Below, in pieces: positions 1,289 to 17,894 of a DNA stretch of 41,153 nt. Numbering within the stretch: the first letter of the stretch is position 1; each line of letters opens with the position of its first letter. Source of the stretch: Burkholderiales bacterium (GTDB taxonomy: Bacteria; Pseudomonadota; Gammaproteobacteria; Burkholderiales; SG8-41). Under the pieces are notes generated by a model. That model worked only from the letters and a program-made list of their open reading frames with translations, searched no databases and was not told the DNA's origin. The position numbers and the translations under genes are program-made. The stretch spans positions 1 through 41,153 of the forward strand of contig CAKKQX010000296.1 of NCBI GenBank assembly GCA_919902235.1, in the 5' to 3' direction.

Positions 1289-2047
1289 TCACTGCAGCGC
1301 GCGCAGCAGCAGCGACACTCCGCTTGCAGCCAGCAGTCCGCCGATGATGCGGATGGCATGTTCGCGCCTGAGCCGGCCGTGCAGGCGATTGCCCGTGTAA
1401 AGACCGATCAACATTACCGGAAACAGCAATGCCGCCGTCAACAGCACATCGCGGTTGAAGAGTCCCGCGGTAGCGAACAGCGCGATGCGCGTGATGGTGG
1501 TGAAAATAAAAATCACCGGTATCGTCGCGCGAATCTGCCCGGGCGTGGCGCCGCGTCCGGTCAGGTAAAAGACATAAAGCGGACCACCCACGCCGAAGGT
1601 CGAGGACGTGGCACCTGCAAACAAGCCGAGCGGCGCTGCCGACCAGCGCGCCAGCCGGACCACCGACCCTCGCCCGAAAGCGTAGATCGCGCCGTAGGCC
1701 AGCACGAAAACGCCGAGACAGGCGAGCAGGATGTGTGCCGGCAGCCGCAGCAGCAGAAACACGCCCGCCGCCATGCCGATGAGCATGAACGGCGCCAGCG
1801 GCAGGAGTTCGTGCTTGTTGACGTCGGCGCGCAGCCGCAATCCCATGGTGATGGCGCCGAAGCAGTCGAGCACCACCACCACCGGAATCACGAACTGCAG
1901 CGGAAACAGGTGAGCGAGCAGCGGCACGGCGATGAGGGTGGAACCGAAACCCGAGATGCCGAAGATGATATAGGCCAGCAGGATGATCAGCGGCGCTAAA
2001 ACCAGGATCTCGGGGCTGGGCATGGTTTCGGGGGCGACAAGCGGCAA
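1289..2047 (-). CDS. TauE/SafE (DUF81) family membrane protein, putative sulfite/organosulfonate exporter
   Basis: About 250 aa and very hydrophobic. Has the duplicated glycine-rich TM motifs GISGFGSTLIAVPLL and TFGVGGPLYVFYL. The track start at 2047 is TTG; an in-frame ATG at 2023 is an alternative start. Confidence 0.75.
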   Translation of the reverse strand: MPLVAPETMPSPEILVLAPLIILLAYIIFGISGFGSTLIAVPLLAHLFPLQFVIPVVVVLDCFGAITMGLRLRADVNKHELLPLAPFMLIGMAAGVFLLLRLPAHILLACLGVFVLAYGAIYAFGRGSVVRLARWSAAPLGLFAGATSSTFGVGGPLYVFYLTGRGATPGQIRATIPVIFIFTTITRIALFATAGLFNRDVLLTAALLFPVMLIGLYTGNRLHGRLRREHAIRIIGGLLAASGVSLLLRALQ

Positions 2048-13687: not shown

Positions 13688-14551
13688 TCAGGCGGCGACC
13701 ACGTAGCCGGAAGGCGTGCCGAGCACCGTCGTGCGTTCCATGTGGCGGCGCTGCGTCTCGTCGAAATCACCCAGCGCCTGGTGCATGGTGCAGCGGTTGT
13801 CCCACACCACGATGTCGTGCTTGCGCCACTGGTGGCGGTAGACGAATTCCGGCCGCGTGGCGTGGCGGTTGAGATAGTCGATCAGCGGCTTGCTTTCTTC
13901 CTCGGTCATGCCGTCGAAGCGGCTGACTTTCTCGCCCAGGTAGAGCGCCTTGCGTCCGGTTTCGGGATGCACCCGCACTACCGGCTGGGCGACCGGCGGG
14001 TTGATGCGCTTCTGCTCTGCGGCGCGCACCGTTCCGGTGGCCTCGTTGGCGATCTTGCGCGTGCCCGACATGTGAATGCCGTGCAGGTCAGCGATCAGTT
14101 CCTTCATGCCATCCGACAGCGTCTCGTAGGCCATGGTCATGTTGGCGAACAGCGTGTCGCCGCCCACCTCGGGTATCACATGGCTGCGCAGCAGCGAGCC
14201 AAGCGACGGCGTGGTGGTGAACGACATGTCGGAATGCCACTGGCGGCCGGTATATCTCGAGTCGGATGGGGTGCCGTCGGGGTTGGGTTCGTTGGTGACC
14301 AGCAGCAGTTCGGGGTGCTTGGGATGGCGGTCGCGCGGCAGGGCATCATGTCGGTCGAGCTCGCCGAAGCGACGGCTGAACTCGATGTGCTGCTCGCGCG
14401 TGATGTCCTGGTTGCGCAGCAGCAGGATGCCGTAATTCAGGAATGCCTGGTAAATCTCGCCAAAAGCCGCCTCGCTCATCGGTTTGGAAACGTCGGCGTC
14501 GCACACCTCCACGCCCAGCGCGTTGGACAGCCTGCGCAGCTTCAAGGCCAT
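13688..14551 (-). CDS. TauD/TfdA family Fe(II)/2-oxoglutarate-dependent dioxygenase
   Basis: HxD...H triad in WHSDMSF and VWDNRCTMHQA, with the RRHMERTTV arginine motif. The start is set at the ATG at 14551, preceded by AAGGAGG; the track ORF starts 8 codons earlier. Confidence 0.85.
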   Translation of the reverse strand: MALKLRRLSNALGVEVCDADVSKPMSEAAFGEIYQAFLNYGILLLRNQDITREQHIEFSRRFGELDRHDALPRDRHPKHPELLLVTNEPNPDGTPSDSRYTGRQWHSDMSFTTTPSLGSLLRSHVIPEVGGDTLFANMTMAYETLSDGMKELIADLHGIHMSGTRKIANEATGTVRAAEQKRINPPVAQPVVRVHPETGRKALYLGEKVSRFDGMTEEESKPLIDYLNRHATRPEFVYRHQWRKHDIVVWDNRCTMHQALGDFDETQRRHMERTTVLGTPSGYVVAA

Positions 14552-14723
14552 GGTCGCTCCTCCTTTTTGTTTCATGGCAGCAAGAATACGGTCAATCGGG
14601 AATTGAATATCCGGTGATCGGCAAAGGCGGCAGCCGGGGCACTCCGGGGGTCAGCCTGCTCCCGCAATTATTTCCCGAGTACGGGCGCCATTTGTGCGCG
14701 CATGAAACAAGAATATCCCCGGC

Positions 14724-15695
14724 TCACCACGGCGCCACGATGGGCCCGCCCTTGATGGTCGTGCGGTGCATCACGCGGCGCTGGCTGGAGTCGATCTCGG
14801 TGCGGTAGTGCATGCAGCAGCGGTTGTCCCACAGCACGATATCGCCGACGCGCCATTTGTGCGTCCATGCGTATTTCGCCTGCGTCGCGTGCGCCCACAG
14901 CTTGTCGAGCAGCGCTTCGCTGTCCGCATTGGACATGCCGATGATGTAGTTGGACGGCCAGTCGCGGCGCCGTCCCAGATACAGCGCGTGCCTGCCGGTG
15001 AGCGGATGCACCCGCACCAGCGGATGCGTCGGTCCTTCGACTTCCTCGGGACTCGTCGGCAGCTTCACGCCGGGGCGCAGGATGCCGGCGCTGTTGCGGC
15101 TGGAATCGTGCACTTGTGATTTGCCTTCGATGGCGCGCCTGAGTTCGGCAGGCAGTTCCTGGTAGGCGAGATACTGGTTATTGAACGAGGTGTCTCCGCC
15201 GCCATCTGCGGGTATTTCCAGCGAGTAGAGCATACTGCCCGCGGGCGGCACCGCAACGTAAGAATTATCGGTGTGCCATACCACTTCGTAGCTGCCGAGG
15301 CCGCCGTTGTCGCGCACCGGGCGGCCATCCGGTCCGAGGTTGGAAATGATGGCGACGCTCGGGTGCGTGGACACCATGTACTGGTTGTCCACTTTTTGGC
15401 CGGCGTCGAGATGGTATTTGCGCGAGGCTGCCTCGTGCGGCGGGCCGAAGATGGCGGAGGCCGCGAGCAGCTGCTCGTCGTCGATATCCTGACCGCGAAT
15501 CAGCAGCACCAGATGATCGGTCCAGGCCTGGCGCAGCGCGGCCTTGACGTTGTCCGGCAGCGGCAGGGAAAAATCGATGCCGCGGATTTCCGCGCCCAGC
15601 GCGGCGCCGGTGGGGATAGCCTCGAATGCGGCAAGCGTGTTGGCCGCTTGCGCAGCGTTGCCGCTGGCGGGAGATGGTTGACCTGCGGTGTGCAT
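14724..15695 (-). CDS. TauD/TfdA family Fe(II)/2-oxoglutarate-dependent dioxygenase, second diverged paralogue
   Basis: WHTDNSY, LWDNRCCMHYR and RRVMHRTTI. 323 aa with an approximately 30-aa N-terminal extension. An AGGAGG RBS sits 5 nt upstream of the ATG. Confidence 0.85.
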   Translation of the reverse strand: MHTAGQPSPASGNAAQAANTLAAFEAIPTGAALGAEIRGIDFSLPLPDNVKAALRQAWTDHLVLLIRGQDIDDEQLLAASAIFGPPHEAASRKYHLDAGQKVDNQYMVSTHPSVAIISNLGPDGRPVRDNGGLGSYEVVWHTDNSYVAVPPAGSMLYSLEIPADGGGDTSFNNQYLAYQELPAELRRAIEGKSQVHDSSRNSAGILRPGVKLPTSPEEVEGPTHPLVRVHPLTGRHALYLGRRRDWPSNYIIGMSNADSEALLDKLWAHATQAKYAWTHKWRVGDIVLWDNRCCMHYRTEIDSSQRRVMHRTTIKGGPIVAPW

Positions 15696-15714
15696 CAGAG
15701 CCTCCTGTGGTATC

Positions 15715-15790
15715 GAAACGGTGCGCGAAACGGTCTGTGAAACAGGTCTGTGAAACGGGTCTGTGAAACGGGTCTGCGAAACGATCCGGC
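15715..15790. repeat. Tandem array of 12-13-bp GAAAC(G)GGTCTGT units, about 5.5 copies
   Basis: gaaacggtgcgc / gaaacggtctgt / gaaacaggtctgt / gaaacgggtctgt / gaaacgggtctgc / gaaacgatccggc, read head to tail. The array starts 20 nt upstream of the start codon at 15695. Confidence 0.9.
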
Positions 15791-15944
15791 GTGACTGCGT
15801 CCGTGGTTGCGTTACAACGTTTTCAAGTCATTCTGTAATTGCAGCTTGCGCACCGGAACATGGCCGCATTCTCTGCCTGCGCTCCACGCAGCGTCAAGGC
15901 GGCGTCCGGATCGTGGATACGCGGGGGCAAAAAGCAGGGCACGG

Positions 15945-16763
15945 CTAGGGGGTCGCGATCAGCGGTAGCGGCCTGTCCTTCCATGCATGAAAGTAGTCGT
16001 AATCGACCTGACGGTGCAGCCCGTGGCGCATGGCTTCGATGATGAAAGCGTCGTCGGCTTCGATGTTTTCGAGGTTGACGTCGGCGCCGAATTCGCCGAT
16101 CAGCCATTTCGCGATCCTGAAGCGGTCATCGCCCGGTCCGCACTCGATGATGAGCTGCTCGGGCCCCACGCCGCGCATCAGTCGGTGCAGCGCATCGCTG
16201 CTTTCCCTGATCGCGAGCGCGACGTCGCTTTTCTCGACCACCACGAGGTAAACCCCCGCTTCGAGGTCGCGCTTCGCCGTCTCAATCGCCTCGTCCGCGT
16301 CGAGCGGATGCTCGGGGAATTTCTTGCCAAGTTCAGTGTAGACCGTCAGGCCGTTTGCGCGCGCCCATTTGATGGACGCGACGCGCTGTTCGGGCTTGAG
16401 CGCGATCGAGTCCTCGCTGACCTCCACGCCCTTGAATCCCAGATCCGCGATGCGCTCCATGAACTGCGGCACCTTGCCCTGCACCGCGGCGACCTGGAAC
16501 GGAATGCCGCCGGGCAGGGTGTCGATGCCGGCTTTGTTGTAAAGGGCGTTTTTTTCGCGTATCAGTCGCGGCGGATTGCGCCACATCAGCCCGACATGAT
16601 CCGGCAGCTTGATGTGGTCGATGATGTCGCCGGCAGTTTCGATGAGGTCACGGGCCTGGGCCAGCGATTTTGCCTTGTCGCTCACCACGCTCAGGCCGAG
16701 TTTGCGCGGCTTGGCCGGGCGGGGCGGGCGCGCGAGAAAATCGAATGCGGCGTGCTGCGTCAT
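15945..16763 (-). CDS. comA: ComA-family protein, (2R)-phospho-3-sulfolactate synthase homologue
   Basis: 272 aa, colinear with archaeal ComA as I recall it: GLSVVSDK, REKNALYNKAGIDTLPGGIPFQ, GFKGVEVSEDSIALKPEQR, GLTVYTELGKK, GADVNLENI. Confidence 0.8.
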   Translation of the reverse strand: MTQHAAFDFLARPPRPAKPRKLGLSVVSDKAKSLAQARDLIETAGDIIDHIKLPDHVGLMWRNPPRLIREKNALYNKAGIDTLPGGIPFQVAAVQGKVPQFMERIADLGFKGVEVSEDSIALKPEQRVASIKWARANGLTVYTELGKKFPEHPLDADEAIETAKRDLEAGVYLVVVEKSDVALAIRESSDALHRLMRGVGPEQLIIECGPGDDRFRIAKWLIGEFGADVNLENIEADDAFIIEAMRHGLHRQVDYDYFHAWKDRPLPLIATP

Positions 16764-16895
16764 GTTGTCTCCTCCGGTTTGGCGTTATCATACGCCCGCG
16801 CGCCGCCATTACGCGCGGCGTTACGTGATTTGCCCACAGCGTGGACGCGCCGACGATAAACCGTGCGCCGTGCATCAAACTCCGGAGAAGGGGAA

Positions 16896-17894
16896 ATGAA
16901 AGTCGCTGCGTCATCACTGCCACTTTTGGTTGCCGCGCTGTTCGTGGCGAGCGGCACACCCGCGTCCGATGCGCATGCCCAGTCTGCATGGAAACCGGCG
17001 CAGAACATCGAGATCATCGTCCCCGCCGCCGCCGGCGGCGCCAACGACCACACCGGCCGGCTGGTGCAGCGCATCCTGCAGGACGGCAAACTCGTCGACC
17101 AGACCATCAATGTCATCAACAAGCCGGGCGGCGGCCACAGCATCGGGCTCGCCTATCTCAACCAGCGCGCGGGCGACGGCCACTATGTGATGGTGGAGAC
17201 CATCACCATGCTGGTGAACGAATTGACCGGCAAGCTCAATGTCCGGCATACCGACATCACGCCGCTGGCGGTGCTCTACAAGGACTTCATCGCGATTTCC
17301 GTGCGCGAGGATTCCCCGCTCAAAACCGGCAGGGATTTCATCGAGCGGCTGAAAAAGGATTCCGCCTCGCTCAGTATCGCGCTGTCGAGCGCGCTTGCCA
17401 ACGCCAACCACCTTGCGGCTGCGATGATCGCGAAAAACGGCGGTGCCGATGCGAAGAAGATGAAAATCGTCGTCTTCAACTCGGGTTCGGAAACCATGAC
17501 CGCGCTGCTGGGCGGCCACGTCGATGTCGTTGCCGGTCCCGCCAACCTTGCCGCACGCCACCTTGCCGGCGGGAAAATCCGCGTGCTGGGCATCACCGCT
17601 GCGCAGCGCCTTGGCGGACCACTGGCGCAGGTGCCGACCTTCGGCGAGCACGGTGCGCCCGGCGTCATGGCCAACTGGCGCAGCGTCATCGGGCCCAAGG
17701 GCATGAGCGTCGCGCAGATCGCTTACTGGGATCAGGCGCTTGCCAAAATGGTGCAGGCCGAAGCATATAAAAAGGAAGTCGAGCTCAACCTTGCCGATGC
17801 CGAGTACATGGGCGCGGCACAGGCGCGCAAGTACTGGGACGCCCAGCACAGCGAGTTGAAGACCCTGCTTACCGATCTCGGCTTGAGCAAATAA
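16896..17894 (+). CDS. Bug-family (TctC-like) substrate-binding protein
   Basis: The ATG at 16896 follows GGAGAAGGGG. Signal peptide MKVAASSLPLLVAALFVASGTPASDAHA, then IEIIVPAAAGGANDHTGRLV...VINKPGGGHSIG. 332 aa. Confidence 0.85.
   Translation: MKVAASSLPLLVAALFVASGTPASDAHAQSAWKPAQNIEIIVPAAAGGANDHTGRLVQRILQDGKLVDQTINVINKPGGGHSIGLAYLNQRAGDGHYVMVETITMLVNELTGKLNVRHTDITPLAVLYKDFIAISVREDSPLKTGRDFIERLKKDSASLSIALSSALANANHLAAAMIAKNGGADAKKMKIVVFNSGSETMTALLGGHVDVVAGPANLAARHLAGGKIRVLGITAAQRLGGPLAQVPTFGEHGAPGVMANWRSVIGPKGMSVAQIAYWDQALAKMVQAEAYKKEVELNLADAEYMGAAQARKYWDAQHSELKTLLTDLGLSK

What the first reader, a model, noticed from the sequence alone, without database searches (positions are those of the whole stretch)
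13688..17894. ComA-type phosphosulfolactate synthase homologue in one operon with two TauD/TfdA dioxygenases and a divergent Bug receptor
**Layout.** Three co-directional minus-strand genes lie here: the ComA homologue (15945-16763), a TauD paralogue (14724-15695) and a second TauD paralogue (13688-14551). They face a divergently transcribed TctC-like solute receptor (16896-17894).
**Opposing chemistries.** ComA forms a C-S bond from PEP and sulfite, as in coenzyme M and sulfolactate biosynthesis. TauD-type enzymes typically hydroxylate the carbon next to a sulfonate or sulfate and release sulfite or sulfate. Both dioxygenases keep the HxD...H iron triad.
**What is missing.** The window has none of the usual partners: comB/comC/comDE, suyAB, xsc, or ssu/tau ABC transporter genes. 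The combination therefore matches no sulfonate pathway I know.
**Possible altered specificity.** The ComA homologue departs from the archaeal KFGWGTS segment, reading KLPDHVG here.
**Possible functions.** These include sulfite capture coupled to desulfonation, catabolism of a sulfolactate-like compound with ComA running in reverse, or a non-sulfur PEP-derived substrate.
Basis: partly seen in the sequence, partly recalled or inferred. Interest (0 to 1): 0.65.

Follow-up and report, generated by a model that had tools for sequence, protein, structure and literature searches.

The report
ComA-like enzyme paired with TauD dioxygenase
A groundwater betaproteobacterium carries a divergent relative of the coenzyme-M enzyme ComA next to a TauD-type oxygenase and a solute receptor; this trio recurs in other bacteria, is probably not a sulfolactate-making enzyme set, and looks like an uncharacterised route for breaking down an acidic organic compound.

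Summary
**Observation.** It is correct. All four genes exist at the stated coordinates, with the stated families and motifs.

**What is conserved.** The second dioxygenase (TauD-B, 13688-14551) never travels with the ComA gene elsewhere. Three genes do recur together:
- the ComA-like gene (15945-16763);
- the 323-aa dioxygenase TauD-A (14724-15695);
- this particular divergent Bug/TctC receptor (16896-17894).

They appear in at least 11 close loci and in more distant lineages (Rhodospirillales, a marine TARA contig).

**The ComA-like protein.**
- Its predicted fold matches ComA (TM 0.78-0.84 to 1QWG).
- It keeps the acidic/lysine barrel core.
- It sits in a separate, well-supported clade of 38 representative clusters (support 0.99).
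- That clade lacks every motif shared by the PSL synthases used as references: GxGTS, PGGT, the E-[GA]-RESG loop, EAPxK and NLGN.
- It has its own invariant residues (D55-H56, D118, E232).
- No comB was found in the genome, which is about 87% complete.

**Best reading (about 0.55).** This is a catabolic module for an imported anionic organic acid. TauD-A hydroxylates the substrate. The ComA-like enzyme performs enolate-based beta-elimination or Michael addition. It does not synthesise PSL.

**Sulfur link.** An organosulfur substrate is possible (about 0.35-0.4). The two other ComA paralogues in this genome or their orthologues sit beside sulfatase-family genes, and one also beside a TauE/SafE permease gene.

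**Limits.** Co-transcription could not be tested. The substrate is unknown.

The parts
16896..17894 (+). Divergent Bug/TctC periplasmic solute receptor (TTT family), transcribed away from the ComA-like gene. It is a probable part of the module.
   Evidence: PF03401 scores 93.2 bits, well below the roughly 210-235 bits of the window's other two Bug genes, with weak hits to Phosphonate-bd and SsuA_fam. An N-terminal signal-peptide-like segment is visible in the translation. A 70% orthologue lies directly after the ComA orthologue in L103. Relatives at 37-41% lie in ComA/TauD loci L004, L017 and L018.
16764..16895 (.). 132-bp divergent intergenic region between the ComA-like gene and the Bug gene. 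It presumably holds both promoters.
   Evidence: Sequence read. The sigma-70 scan found no site here, so the promoter role is inferred only.
15945..16763 (-). ComA-1: a ComA-fold TIM-barrel enzyme of an uncharacterised clade ('DH/NLEN' clade). It is not a canonical phosphosulfolactate synthase.
   Evidence: PF02679 scores 175.6 bits. TIGR03849 scores 152.7 against a cut-off of 280. The AF2 model has pLDDT 93 and TM 0.78/0.84 to 1QWG.
15696..15944 (-). 249-bp ComA/TauD-A spacer. It holds a promoter-like site (15897-15868) and a 13-bp tandem repeat (15727-15783, 4.5 copies) just upstream of the TauD-A ribosome-binding site.
   Evidence: The repeat unit occurs nowhere else in the MAG. A related strain (X3) lacks 26 nt, i.e. 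two units. In relatives the spacer is usually only 40-113 bp.
14724..15695 (-). TauD-A: Fe(II)/2-oxoglutarate dioxygenase of the TauD/TfdA family. It is the conserved partner of ComA-1.
   Evidence: PF02668 scores 204 bits. The H-x-D...H triad and both Arg residues are kept. It is not a taurine dioxygenase equivalog (146 bits against a cut-off of 313). The best solved relatives are RdpA, 2,4-D dioxygenases and TauD. Orthologues at 66-79% lie next to ComA-1 orthologues in L004, L006, L007, L009, L012, L013, L067, L069, L097, L098 and L103.
13688..14551 (-). TauD-B: a second TauD/TfdA-family dioxygenase. It is adjacent here but is not a conserved member of the module.
   Evidence: PF02668 scores 237.5 bits. 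It is 35.6% identical to TauD-A. No orthologue lies beside ComA-1 in any related locus. It scores 221.9 against the 313 cut-off for taurine dioxygenase.

Best explanation
The conserved unit has three genes: the divergent Bug/TctC receptor (16896-17894), the ComA-like enzyme ComA-1 (15945-16763) and the dioxygenase TauD-A (14724-15695). I read it as a catabolic module for an anionic organic acid taken up by a tripartite tricarboxylate transporter.

**Shown.**
- ComA-1 has the ComA TIM-barrel fold. It keeps the family-wide residues at the C-terminal ends of the barrel strands (D29, D49, K52, G85-G86, E114, S116, E144, K148, E177, E207, R246).
- It belongs to a separate clade that has lost every motif shared by the reference phosphosulfolactate synthases.
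- That clade has gained its own near-invariant D55-H56, D118 and E232.
- The three genes recur together in unrelated genomic backgrounds.

**Inferred.**
- ComA-1 still performs the family's enolate chemistry on a carboxylate: removal or addition of the alpha-proton coupled to loss or addition of a beta-substituent, i.e. beta-elimination or Michael addition. The canonical enzyme is thought to use a Mg2+-stabilised enolate; I did not verify which conserved residues bind the metal.
- Its substrate is something other than PEP plus sulfite.
- TauD-A hydroxylates a C-H next to the carboxylate or another anionic group of the same substrate or a pathway intermediate.
- The Bug protein delivers the compound to TctAB permease genes encoded elsewhere.

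**Neighbours and leaving group.** Frequent neighbours are SDR dehydrogenases, MR/MLE enolase-superfamily enzymes, aconitase/PrpD-type hydro-lyases and GntR-FCD or LysR regulators. These suggest a hydroxy- or polycarboxylic acid. Whether the leaving group is sulfite (a sulfo-carboxylate) or something else is open. I put an organosulfur substrate at about 0.35-0.4.

**TauD-B** is a neighbour, not a conserved member.
For: **Fold and core.**
- The AF2 model has pLDDT 93. Foldseek's top hits are 1QWG and 1U83, at TM 0.70-0.78 normalised to the query and 0.84 normalised to the target.
- Family-wide invariant residues fall on or just after the predicted beta-strands.

**Not a canonical PSL synthase.**
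- TIGR03849 scores 152.7 against a cut-off of 280.
- The M. jannaschii ComA, Xanthobacter XcbB and a Brevibacillus ComA homologue (YitD-like) share K-x-G-[FW]-G-T-S, PGGT, a 7-residue-longer E-[GA]-RESG loop, EAPxK and NLGN. ComA-1 and its clade have none of them.
- Per-position counts for the DH/NLEN clade against the canonical clade:

| Position | DH/NLEN clade | Canonical clade |
|---|---|---|
| 55 | D 33/38 | F or W |
| 56 | H 35/38 | G 43/50 |
| 87 | I or V | T 46/50 |
| 118 | D 32/38 | G 48/50 |
| 179 | S, A or T | R 44/50 |
| 232 | E 28/38 | G 41/50 |

- In the tree, the DH/NLEN clade (38 leaves) has support 0.993 and shares no leaf with the clade holding the reference enzymes.
- No PF04029 (ComB) is present in the MAG.

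**Conserved linkage.**
- ComA-1 is followed by TauD-A, directly or with one gene between, in L004, L006, L007, L009, L012 and L013, L067, L069, L097 and L098 and L103.
- More distant cases are L017 in Rhodospirillales, G073 (ComA 37% with TauD-A 66%) and the TARA contig L100.
- A 70% orthologue of the Bug receptor lies in the L103 operon.
- The flanking genes differ between loci, so the linkage is not mere synteny.

**Catabolic flavour.** Neighbours include SDR, MR/MLE, aconitase-like, PrpD, CoA-transferase, GntR-FCD and LysR genes.

**Sulfur hint.**
- ComA-2 is flanked by a TauE/SafE permease and a Cys-type (CSPNR) sulfatase.
- The ComA-2 orthologue in L060 is flanked by two sulfatase-family genes.
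- ComA-3 orthologues are adjacent to PF00884-like genes in 6 loci.
Against: - No activity has been measured for any member of this clade. The mechanism is extrapolated from the one characterised reaction of the family.
- I could not read the ComA structure paper. The claim that the lost motifs bind PEP phosphate or sulfite is therefore an inference from their pattern of conservation, not from known contacts.
- ComA-1 occurs without TauD-A in roughly 40% of close loci examined (L005, L008, L010, L011, L015/L101, L070, L102).
- TauD-A orthologues occur without ComA in related genomes (G055, G237, G152, G195, G278). The two enzymes are therefore not obligatorily coupled.
- In this window the spacer is 249 bp with a promoter-like site, so co-transcription is unproven.
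- No sulfite-handling, Ssu/Tau transporter or CysB-type regulator gene appears in any ComA-1 locus, which weakens the sulfur version.
- Bug genes are so numerous here (at least 150) that the receptor's membership rests mainly on L103 and on weaker relatives.
Confidence: 0.55

Rival explanations
1. Sulfo-lyase version. ComA-1 runs the family reaction in the eliminating direction on a non-phosphorylated sulfo-carboxylate such as 3-sulfolactate or sulfosuccinate. It releases sulfite and an enol or alkene acid, as a non-homologous analogue of SuyAB. TauD-A either creates the 2-hydroxy substrate or desulfonates a related sulfonate by oxygenation. This is a specific sub-case of the best explanation.
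For: - The only known chemistry of the family is making a C-S bond with sulfite (literature).
- Loss of the motifs shared by PEP-using enzymes would fit a substrate without phosphate.
- TauD/AtsK relatives cleave sulfonates and sulfate esters (PDB names).
- The paralogues ComA-2 and ComA-3 sit next to a sulfatase, a TauE/SafE permease and sulfatase-like genes.
- A Paracoccus homologue lies near an NrtA/SsuA/CpmA-type ABC transporter.
- ComA-1 and TauD-A are low in Cys+Met, at the 9th and 15th percentile of the MAG. This is weak evidence.
Against: - No sulfite exporter, sulfite dehydrogenase or sulfonate transporter lies in any of about 25 ComA-1-clade loci.
- The regulators seen nearby are GntR-FCD or LysR types of unknown specificity.
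- Sulfatases release sulfate, not sulfite, so the paralogue contexts do not directly imply C-S cleavage.
- The Cys+Met signal is not significant.
Confidence: 0.3
2. Genuine phosphosulfolactate synthase. ComA-1 condenses PEP with sulfite, for example to capture the sulfite released by the neighbouring TauD-type enzymes or to make sulfolactate.
For: - The Pfam ComA match is strong.
- The fold is ComA-like and the acidic/lysine core is intact.
- Public annotation names the relatives phosphosulfolactate synthase.
Against: - The protein scores far below the equivalog cut-off.
- It lies outside the clade of reference enzymes.
- All canonical motifs are absent, including the RESG loop and R179.
- No ComB is present in the MAG, and no XcbC-like lyase lies beside the gene.
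- The gene contexts are catabolic, not biosynthetic.
- The public names are automatic and based on Pfam.
Confidence: 0.08
3. No joint function. ComA-1, TauD-A and the Bug receptor are independent genes that sit together because TauD and Bug genes are abundant in these genomes and the region is rearrangement-prone.
For: - There are at least 150 Bug genes and about 15 TauD genes in 3.35 Mb.
- Each of ComA-1 and TauD-A occurs without the other in some genomes.
- The gaps are large here.
Against: - The adjacency recurs with the same order and strand in at least 11 loci whose flanks differ, and again in Rhodospirillales and a marine contig.
- The spacers there are 40-113 bp.
- The expected number of chance adjacencies in this genome is about 0.03.
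- The specific Bug orthologue recurs in L103.
Confidence: 0.1

Closest known systems
Phosphosulfolactate synthase: M. jannaschii ComA (PDB 1QWG), B. subtilis YitD (1U83), Xanthobacter autotrophicus XcbB
   Same: - Same Pfam family (PF02679).
- Same TIM-barrel fold (TM 0.78-0.84).
- Same family-wide residues at the barrel's C-terminal face: D29, D49, K52, GG85-86, E114, S116, E144, K148, E177, E207, R246.
   Different: - About 31-34% identity.
- A separate clade with support 0.99.
- Lacks GxGTS, PGGT, the 7-residue RESG loop, EAPxK and NLGN.
- Has clade-specific D55-H56, D118 and E232.
- No ComB/ComC/ComDE or XcbC partners.
- Neighbours are catabolic enzymes and TTT receptors.
TauD (E. coli taurine dioxygenase), AtsK/Rv3406 (sulfate-ester dioxygenases), TfdA/RdpA (phenoxyalkanoate dioxygenases)
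   Same: TauD-A and TauD-B share the fold family, the H-x-D...H iron triad and the two C-terminal Arg residues.
   Different: - Roughly a third of residues are identical to E. coli TauD (36-37%).
- Both score below the taurine-dioxygenase equivalog cut-off (146 and 222 against 313).
- TauD-A has a long insertion before the WHTD motif.
- No tauABC or ats genes are nearby.
- The substrate cannot be assigned.
SuyAB (R)-sulfolactate sulfo-lyase (works-like comparison only; recalled from memory)
   Same: It would catalyse the same kind of reaction that the sulfo-lyase reading proposes for ComA-1: beta-elimination of sulfite from a 2-hydroxy-3-sulfo acid to give pyruvate.
   Different: It is not homologous to ComA-1 (a different fold family). 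No suyAB-type gene was seen in any locus. Nothing here tests this activity.
[quoted passage not shown]
   Same: Another ComA-family TIM-barrel protein whose role is evidently not coenzyme M synthesis and whose molecular function is unknown (bioRxiv 10.1101/2024.10.15.618377).
   Different: It is eukaryotic and a heat-shock memory factor. No relation to the clade described here was tested.
Proteobacterial 'phosphosulfolactate synthase' genes next to TcuA-like FAD dehydrogenases (Paracoccus versutus pTAV3, Bradyrhizobium plasmids; ComA-3 of this MAG)
   Same: - They are non-canonical ComA-family members lacking the RESG loop.
- They are embedded in organic-acid clusters with TTT transporters, MmgE/PrpD, PrpF and SDR genes.
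   Different: - A different clade (ComA-3, support 0.97).
- A different partner: a TcuA-like flavoenzyme or a sulfatase-like gene rather than TauD.

Membership tests
Phosphosulfolactate synthase (ComA, EC 4.4.1.19) | Belongs to Pfam PF02679 and has the ComA TIM-barrel fold | tested here: met
   PF02679 scores 175.6 bits. The AF2 model has pLDDT 93 and Foldseek's top hit is 1QWG at TM 0.78/0.84.
Phosphosulfolactate synthase (ComA, EC 4.4.1.19) | Scores above the curated equivalog cut-off (NCBIfam TIGR03849, 280 bits) | tested here: not met
   152.7 bits.
Phosphosulfolactate synthase (ComA, EC 4.4.1.19) | Carries the motifs shared by the reference enzymes (Mj ComA, XcbB, YitD-like): K-x-G-[FW]-G-T-S, PGGT, E-[GA]-RESG loop, EAPxK, NLGN | tested here: not met
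   ComA-1 reads KLPDHVG, PGGI, EKSD (loop 7 residues shorter), ECGPGDD and NLEN.
Phosphosulfolactate synthase (ComA, EC 4.4.1.19) | Groups phylogenetically with characterised PSL synthases | tested here: not met
   In the FastTree, ComA-1 lies in a 38-leaf clade (support 0.993) that shares no leaf with the 50-leaf clade holding Mj ComA, XcbB and the YitD-like protein.
Phosphosulfolactate synthase (ComA, EC 4.4.1.19) | Pathway partner that uses PSL (ComB phosphatase PF04029, or an XcbC-type lyase next to the gene) | tested here: not met
   No PF04029 hit in the MAG, while the control genomes gave hits (the MAG is 87% complete). There is no aspartase/fumarase-type gene beside ComA-1.
Phosphosulfolactate synthase (ComA, EC 4.4.1.19) | Catalyses PEP + sulfite -> (2R)-phospho-3-sulfolactate | not testable with these tools
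   This needs an enzyme assay.
TauD/TfdA Fe(II)/2-oxoglutarate dioxygenases (PF02668) | Family match with the H-x-D...H iron triad and the 2-oxoglutarate-binding Arg | tested here: met
   204 and 237.5 bits. The equivalents of H99, D101, H255, R266 and R270 are invariant in alignment A3.
Taurine dioxygenase TauD proper (NCBIfam NF007104) | Equivalog score of at least 313 bits; tauABC context | tested here: not met
   146.0 bits (TauD-A) and 221.9 bits (TauD-B). There are no tauABC genes in the window.
Bug/TctC receptors of tripartite tricarboxylate transporters (PF03401) | Family match above the cut-off, with a signal peptide | tested here: met
   93.2 bits against a cut-off of 27. A hydrophobic N-terminal signal-like segment was read by eye. 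No tctA/tctB gene is in the window.

The most novel reading that the evidence does not exclude
The 'DH/NLEN' clade of the ComA family would be a new class of metal-dependent lyase that breaks, rather than makes, a carbon-heteroatom bond. The most attractive case is a SuyAB-independent C-S sulfo-lyase acting on a sulfo-carboxylate. It would work in tandem with a TauD/TfdA-type hydroxylase and a dedicated TTT receptor. That would define an undescribed organosulfonate or polycarboxylate degradation route, found so far mainly in uncultured groundwater and soil Betaproteobacteria and in some marine bacteria.
Probability: 0.25. Interest if true: 0.7.

Novelty: new variant of a known kind. Interest (0 to 1): 0.5.

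Why it matters
**Annotation.** PF02679 proteins are named 'phosphosulfolactate synthase' automatically, and that name feeds predictions of coenzyme M or sulfolactate synthesis in genomes and metagenomes. This work separates a sizeable clade (38 clusters at 50% identity) and at least two further clades, ComA-2 and ComA-3. All lack the motifs of the reference enzymes and sit in catabolic contexts, so the name is probably wrong for them.

**Discovery target.** The conserved pairing with a TauD/TfdA dioxygenase and a specific solute receptor gives a tractable three-protein target. The receptor's ligand would name the substrate.

**If the substrate is a sulfonate.** The module would add a new desulfonation route to the sulfur cycle of aquifers and soils.

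**If it is not.** It would show a new reaction type for the ComA fold.

Tried and rejected
- **ComA structure paper.** I tried to read Wise et al. 2003 for the active-site contacts, but it is not held. Literature searches for characterised non-canonical ComA proteins found nothing useful.
- **Transcript evidence.** No RNA runs contain the region. Only DNA metagenomes from groundwater and soil hold it.
- **Sulfur-economy test.** Cys+Met content puts ComA-1 at the 9th and TauD-A at the 15th percentile of the MAG's proteins. This is too weak to use.
- **TauD substrate residues.** The H70 equivalent appears conserved, but the loop alignment is unreliable, and both Arg residues are common to sulfonate- and carboxylate-using members. 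No assignment was possible.
- **SDR as an obligatory partner.** A 254-aa SDR is linked to ComA-1 in L006 and L008-L011, but its 77-82% orthologue in this MAG lies on another contig (C330) beside an MR/MLE-like gene. It is not part of the module here.
- **TauD-B as a member.** Rejected, because no orthologue lies in any related locus.
- **Earlier scan notes.** Searches by sequence and by words returned nothing.

Full report
**1. Observation**

All four ORFs are present as described.

| Gene | Coordinates | Pfam family | Bits |
|---|---|---|---|
| ComA-like (ComA-1) | 15945-16763 (-) | PF02679 | 175.6 |
| TauD-A | 14724-15695 (-) | PF02668 | 204 |
| TauD-B | 13688-14551 (-) | PF02668 | 237.5 |
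| Bug receptor | 16896-17894 (+) | PF03401 | 93.2 |

They are preferable to the longest ORFs.
- Both dioxygenases keep the equivalents of E. coli TauD H99, D101, H255, R266 and R270.
- The KFGWGTS segment of M. jannaschii ComA reads KLPDHVG here.
- The rest of the window holds housekeeping genes (riboflavin operon, nusB, thiL, recA, glyA, nrdR, hrpA), a TRAP transporter, two more Bug genes and one TauE/SafE-family permease 14 kb away. It has no comB/C/DE, suyAB, xsc, ssu or tau genes.
- The window is contig C296 of a 3.35-Mb, 390-contig, 87%-complete MAG that matches groundwater metagenome runs.
- An independent soil-metagenome assembly of a strain about 1.4% diverged carries the same TauD-A / ComA / Bug arrangement on one 4.2-kb contig.

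**2. Is it one operon?**

This is not shown.
- The ComA/TauD-A spacer is 249 bp. It contains a sigma-70-like site (15897-15868) and 4.5 copies of a 13-bp repeat directly upstream of the TauD-A ribosome-binding site.
- The TauD-A/TauD-B gap is 172 bp.
- No public RNA run holds the region.
- In relatives the ComA/TauD-A spacer is mostly 40-113 bp, where co-transcription is likely.

**3. What the ComA-like protein is**

*Fold.* It matches solved PSL synthases only at about 30% identity (1QWG E=3.6e-24, 1U83 E=2.6e-11). It scores 152.7 bits against the 280-bit equivalog cut-off of TIGR03849. An AlphaFold2 model built on 16 clade members is confident (pLDDT 93). Its only close structural neighbours are ComA structures: 1QWG at TM 0.78/0.84, a designed nanoparticle built on the same protein, and 1U83. 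All other TIM barrels score about 0.5.

*Motifs.* I aligned ComA-1 with M. jannaschii ComA, Xanthobacter XcbB (shown to make PSL, PMC9457059; sequence from pXAUT01) and a Brevibacillus ComA homologue (YitD-like). I then extended the alignment to 142 family representatives.
- The whole family keeps D29, D49, K52, G85-G86, E90, E114, S116, E144, G146, K148, E177, E180, E207, N230, N233 and R246. In the model these lie on or just after the eight beta-strands, the usual TIM-barrel active-site face.
- The clade holding the reference enzymes also has K-x-G-[FW]-G-T-S, T87 (46/50), G118 (48/50), R179 (44/50) within an E-[GA]-RESG loop that is 7 residues longer, P209 (50/50) within EAPxK, and G232.
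- ComA-1 and its clade have none of these. Instead they have D55 (33/38), H56 (35/38), D118 (32/38), a short E-x-[SA]-[DE] segment, a longer G-P-rich beta7 loop and E232 (28/38).

*Tree.* A maximum-likelihood tree puts ComA-1 in a 38-leaf clade with support 0.993. This clade shares no leaf with the 50-leaf clade of reference enzymes.

*Size of the family.* It is small: 750 clusters at 50% identity reach E<=1e-3 in 1.84 billion representatives, and 42 reach 1e-30.

*Pathway partner.* No ComB (PF04029) is detectable in the MAG.

*Conclusion.* The enolate-forming core is retained, but the protein fails four testable criteria for membership of the PSL-synthase group.

**4. Distribution**

- Close relatives (>=53% identity) number about 100 clusters at 90% identity. 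Almost all come from metagenomes.
- In GTDB species genomes they occur in a dozen MAGs, mostly labelled Betaproteobacteria.
- Among 301 genomes sampled from the same order, only this MAG and one other carry an orthologue. That other genome is G162, and its copy is split over two frames.

**5. Gene neighbourhood**

*TauD-A.*
- Orthologues (66-79% identity) lie immediately downstream of the ComA-1 orthologue, on the same strand, in L004, L006, L007 and L009. In L012 and L013 there is a 1-kb gap or one small gene between them.
- The same holds in L067, L097 and L098.
- In L069 a Bug gene lies between them.
- In L103 both lie in one co-directional operon.
- The flanking genes differ from locus to locus.
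- The linkage reappears with more distant members: L017 in Rhodospirillales (ComA 41%, TauD 42%, divergently arranged), G073 (ComA 37% directly followed by a 66% TauD-A orthologue) and a TARA ocean contig with two ComA paralogues and three TauD genes.

*Bug receptor.*
- The window's Bug receptor has a 70% orthologue directly after ComA in L103.
- Relatives at 37-41% lie in L004, L017 and L018.
- This matters because the MAG has at least 150 Bug genes, so a random Bug neighbour would mean little.

*TauD-B.* It is only 35.6% identical to TauD-A. It has no orthologue in any of these loci. The second TauD genes in L103 and L100 are other paralogues.

*Other recurring neighbours.*
- SDR dehydrogenases: divergent upstream in L097 and L098; a 254-aa type in L006 and L008-L011.
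- MR/MLE enzymes: L069, L097, L098, L102, L017.
- An ankyrin-repeat protein after TauD-A: L007, L009, L067, L098.
- Aconitase-type subunits: L103.
- MmgE/PrpD: L017, L100.
- CoA-transferases: L014, L100.
- LysR or GntR-FCD regulators.
- Sources.

*Limits of the linkage.* The pairing is not obligatory.
- ComA-1 lacks TauD-A in L005, L008, L010, L011, L015/L101, L070 and L102.
- TauD-A orthologues stand without ComA in G055, G237, G152, G195 and G278.

**6. The other two ComA paralogues in this genome**

- **ComA-2 (C236).** It lies between a TauE/SafE permease and a Cys-type (CSPNR) sulfatase. Nearby, by my reading of the translations without a family scan, are a gene resembling malate/L-lactate dehydrogenase family 2, class-I-fumarase-like subunits and a flavoprotein. 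The orthologue in G237 is flanked by two sulfatase-family genes.
- **ComA-3 (C173).** It is followed by a TcuA-like FAD dehydrogenase and what looks like a class II aldolase (again read). The same ComA/TcuA pair is annotated on Paracoccus versutus pTAV3, amid TctABC, MmgE/PrpD, PrpF, SDR and an NrtA/SsuA-type ABC transporter. Orthologues in six other genomes sit beside PF00884-like genes.
- Both paralogues also lack the RESG loop.
- Non-canonical ComA proteins are thus repeatedly found in acid-catabolic clusters, and two of the three clades touch sulfate-ester or sulfite-type genes.

**7. Interpretation**

*Shown.*
- ComA fold.
- Conserved core.
- Lost canonical motifs.
- Separate clade.
- Conserved ComA-1/TauD-A/Bug linkage.

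*Inferred.*
- ComA-1 still uses an enolate of a carboxylate, but to add or eliminate a beta-substituent on a substrate other than PEP plus sulfite.
- TauD-A hydroxylates the same compound or an intermediate.
- The Bug receptor imports it through TctAB encoded elsewhere.
- The neighbours (hydro-lyases, dehydrogenases, carboxylate-type regulators) point to a hydroxy- or polycarboxylic acid.

*Probabilities.*
- An organosulfur substrate is the most interesting version, for example a sulfo-carboxylate with ComA-1 acting as a sulfite-eliminating lyase. I give this specific sulfo-lyase version about 0.3. An organosulfur substrate of any kind is at about 0.35-0.4.
  - For it: the family's known chemistry, the TauD/AtsK relationship and the paralogue contexts.
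  - Against it: the absence of any sulfite-handling or sulfonate-transport gene in about 25 ComA-1-clade loci.
- A true PSL synthase or 'sulfite capture' role: about 0.08.
- Unrelated neighbours: about 0.1.

**8. Novelty and verdict**

The genes and families are known. What is new:
- the recognition that this ComA clade is not a PSL synthase by four sequence-, phylogeny- and context-based tests (biochemistry untested);
- that it forms a conserved module with a particular TauD/TfdA dioxygenase and a particular Bug receptor.

I found no literature on it in the searches made. It is a good target for enzyme-function discovery rather than a demonstrated new system. I rate it a new variant of a known kind, with interest 0.5.

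Noticed in passing
window 15727-15783: The 13-bp tandem repeat (GAAACGGGTCTGT on the + strand, 4.5 copies) just upstream of TauD-A varies in copy number between strains. A soil-metagenome contig of a strain about 1.4% diverged lacks 26 nt (two units) here and has a 9-nt insertion at 15800. The unit occurs nowhere else in the MAG.
   Followed up: partly
G000 contig C236:21984-24982 (locus L001): The second ComA paralogue (ComA-2, C236:23443-24165) lies between a TauE/SafE-family permease and a Cys-type sulfatase (CSPNR motif, with an SGSH_C domain). Nearby ORFs, read from their translations only, resemble a Bug receptor, class-I-fumarase subunits, an FAD flavoprotein and a malate/L-lactate dehydrogenase family 2 protein. 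The ComA-2 orthologue in G237 (L060) is flanked by two sulfatase-family genes.
   Followed up: partly
G000 contig C173:32116-35253 (loci L003, L059): The third ComA paralogue (ComA-3) is followed by a TcuA-like FAD dehydrogenase and what looks like a class II aldolase. The same ComA/TcuA pair is annotated on Paracoccus versutus pTAV3 (L064). In six other genomes of the order the ComA-3 orthologue instead abuts a sulfatase-family gene (L043, L047, L049, L050, L052, L061).
   Followed up: partly
whole MAG (G000): At least 150 Bug/TctC receptor genes (the listing is capped at 150 of 187 candidates) and about 15 TauD-family genes in a 3.35-Mb genome, plus 11 TauE/SafE-family genes. This is an extreme expansion of TTT receptors for such a small genome.
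   Followed up: no
L095 / G162:C222:310-1103: The only other ComA-1 orthologue in 301 genomes of the order is split over two reading frames (residues 5-83 and 79-269). It is either a frameshifted pseudogene or an assembly error at a contig end.
   Followed up: no
L103:2648-10801: A metagenome contig carries a compact co-directional operon: TauD-A orthologue, Bug, a 110-aa ComA fragment followed by a full ComA-1 orthologue, the 70% orthologue of the window's Bug receptor, an SDR, aconitase-type large and small subunits, and another TauD. A divergent LysR gene lies upstream. It is the fullest version of the module seen.
   Followed up: partly
L100:1-12828 (TARA ocean contig): Two ComA-family genes, three tandem TauD genes, a PEP-mutase/isocitrate-lyase-family gene, PrpD, two family-III CoA-transferases, a methyltransferase, a CN-hydrolase and a TPP enzyme lie in one 13-kb stretch.
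   Followed up: no
window 1289-2047: A TauE/SafE-family (sulfite-exporter-type) permease gene lies 14 kb from the ComA/TauD genes, next to an aminotransferase.
   Followed up: no
L069:5387-6940 and L097:3605-5146: A PhoD-type phosphodiesterase/phosphatase gene and an MR/MLE gene lie just upstream of the ComA-1/TauD-A pair in two long metagenome contigs.
   Followed up: no
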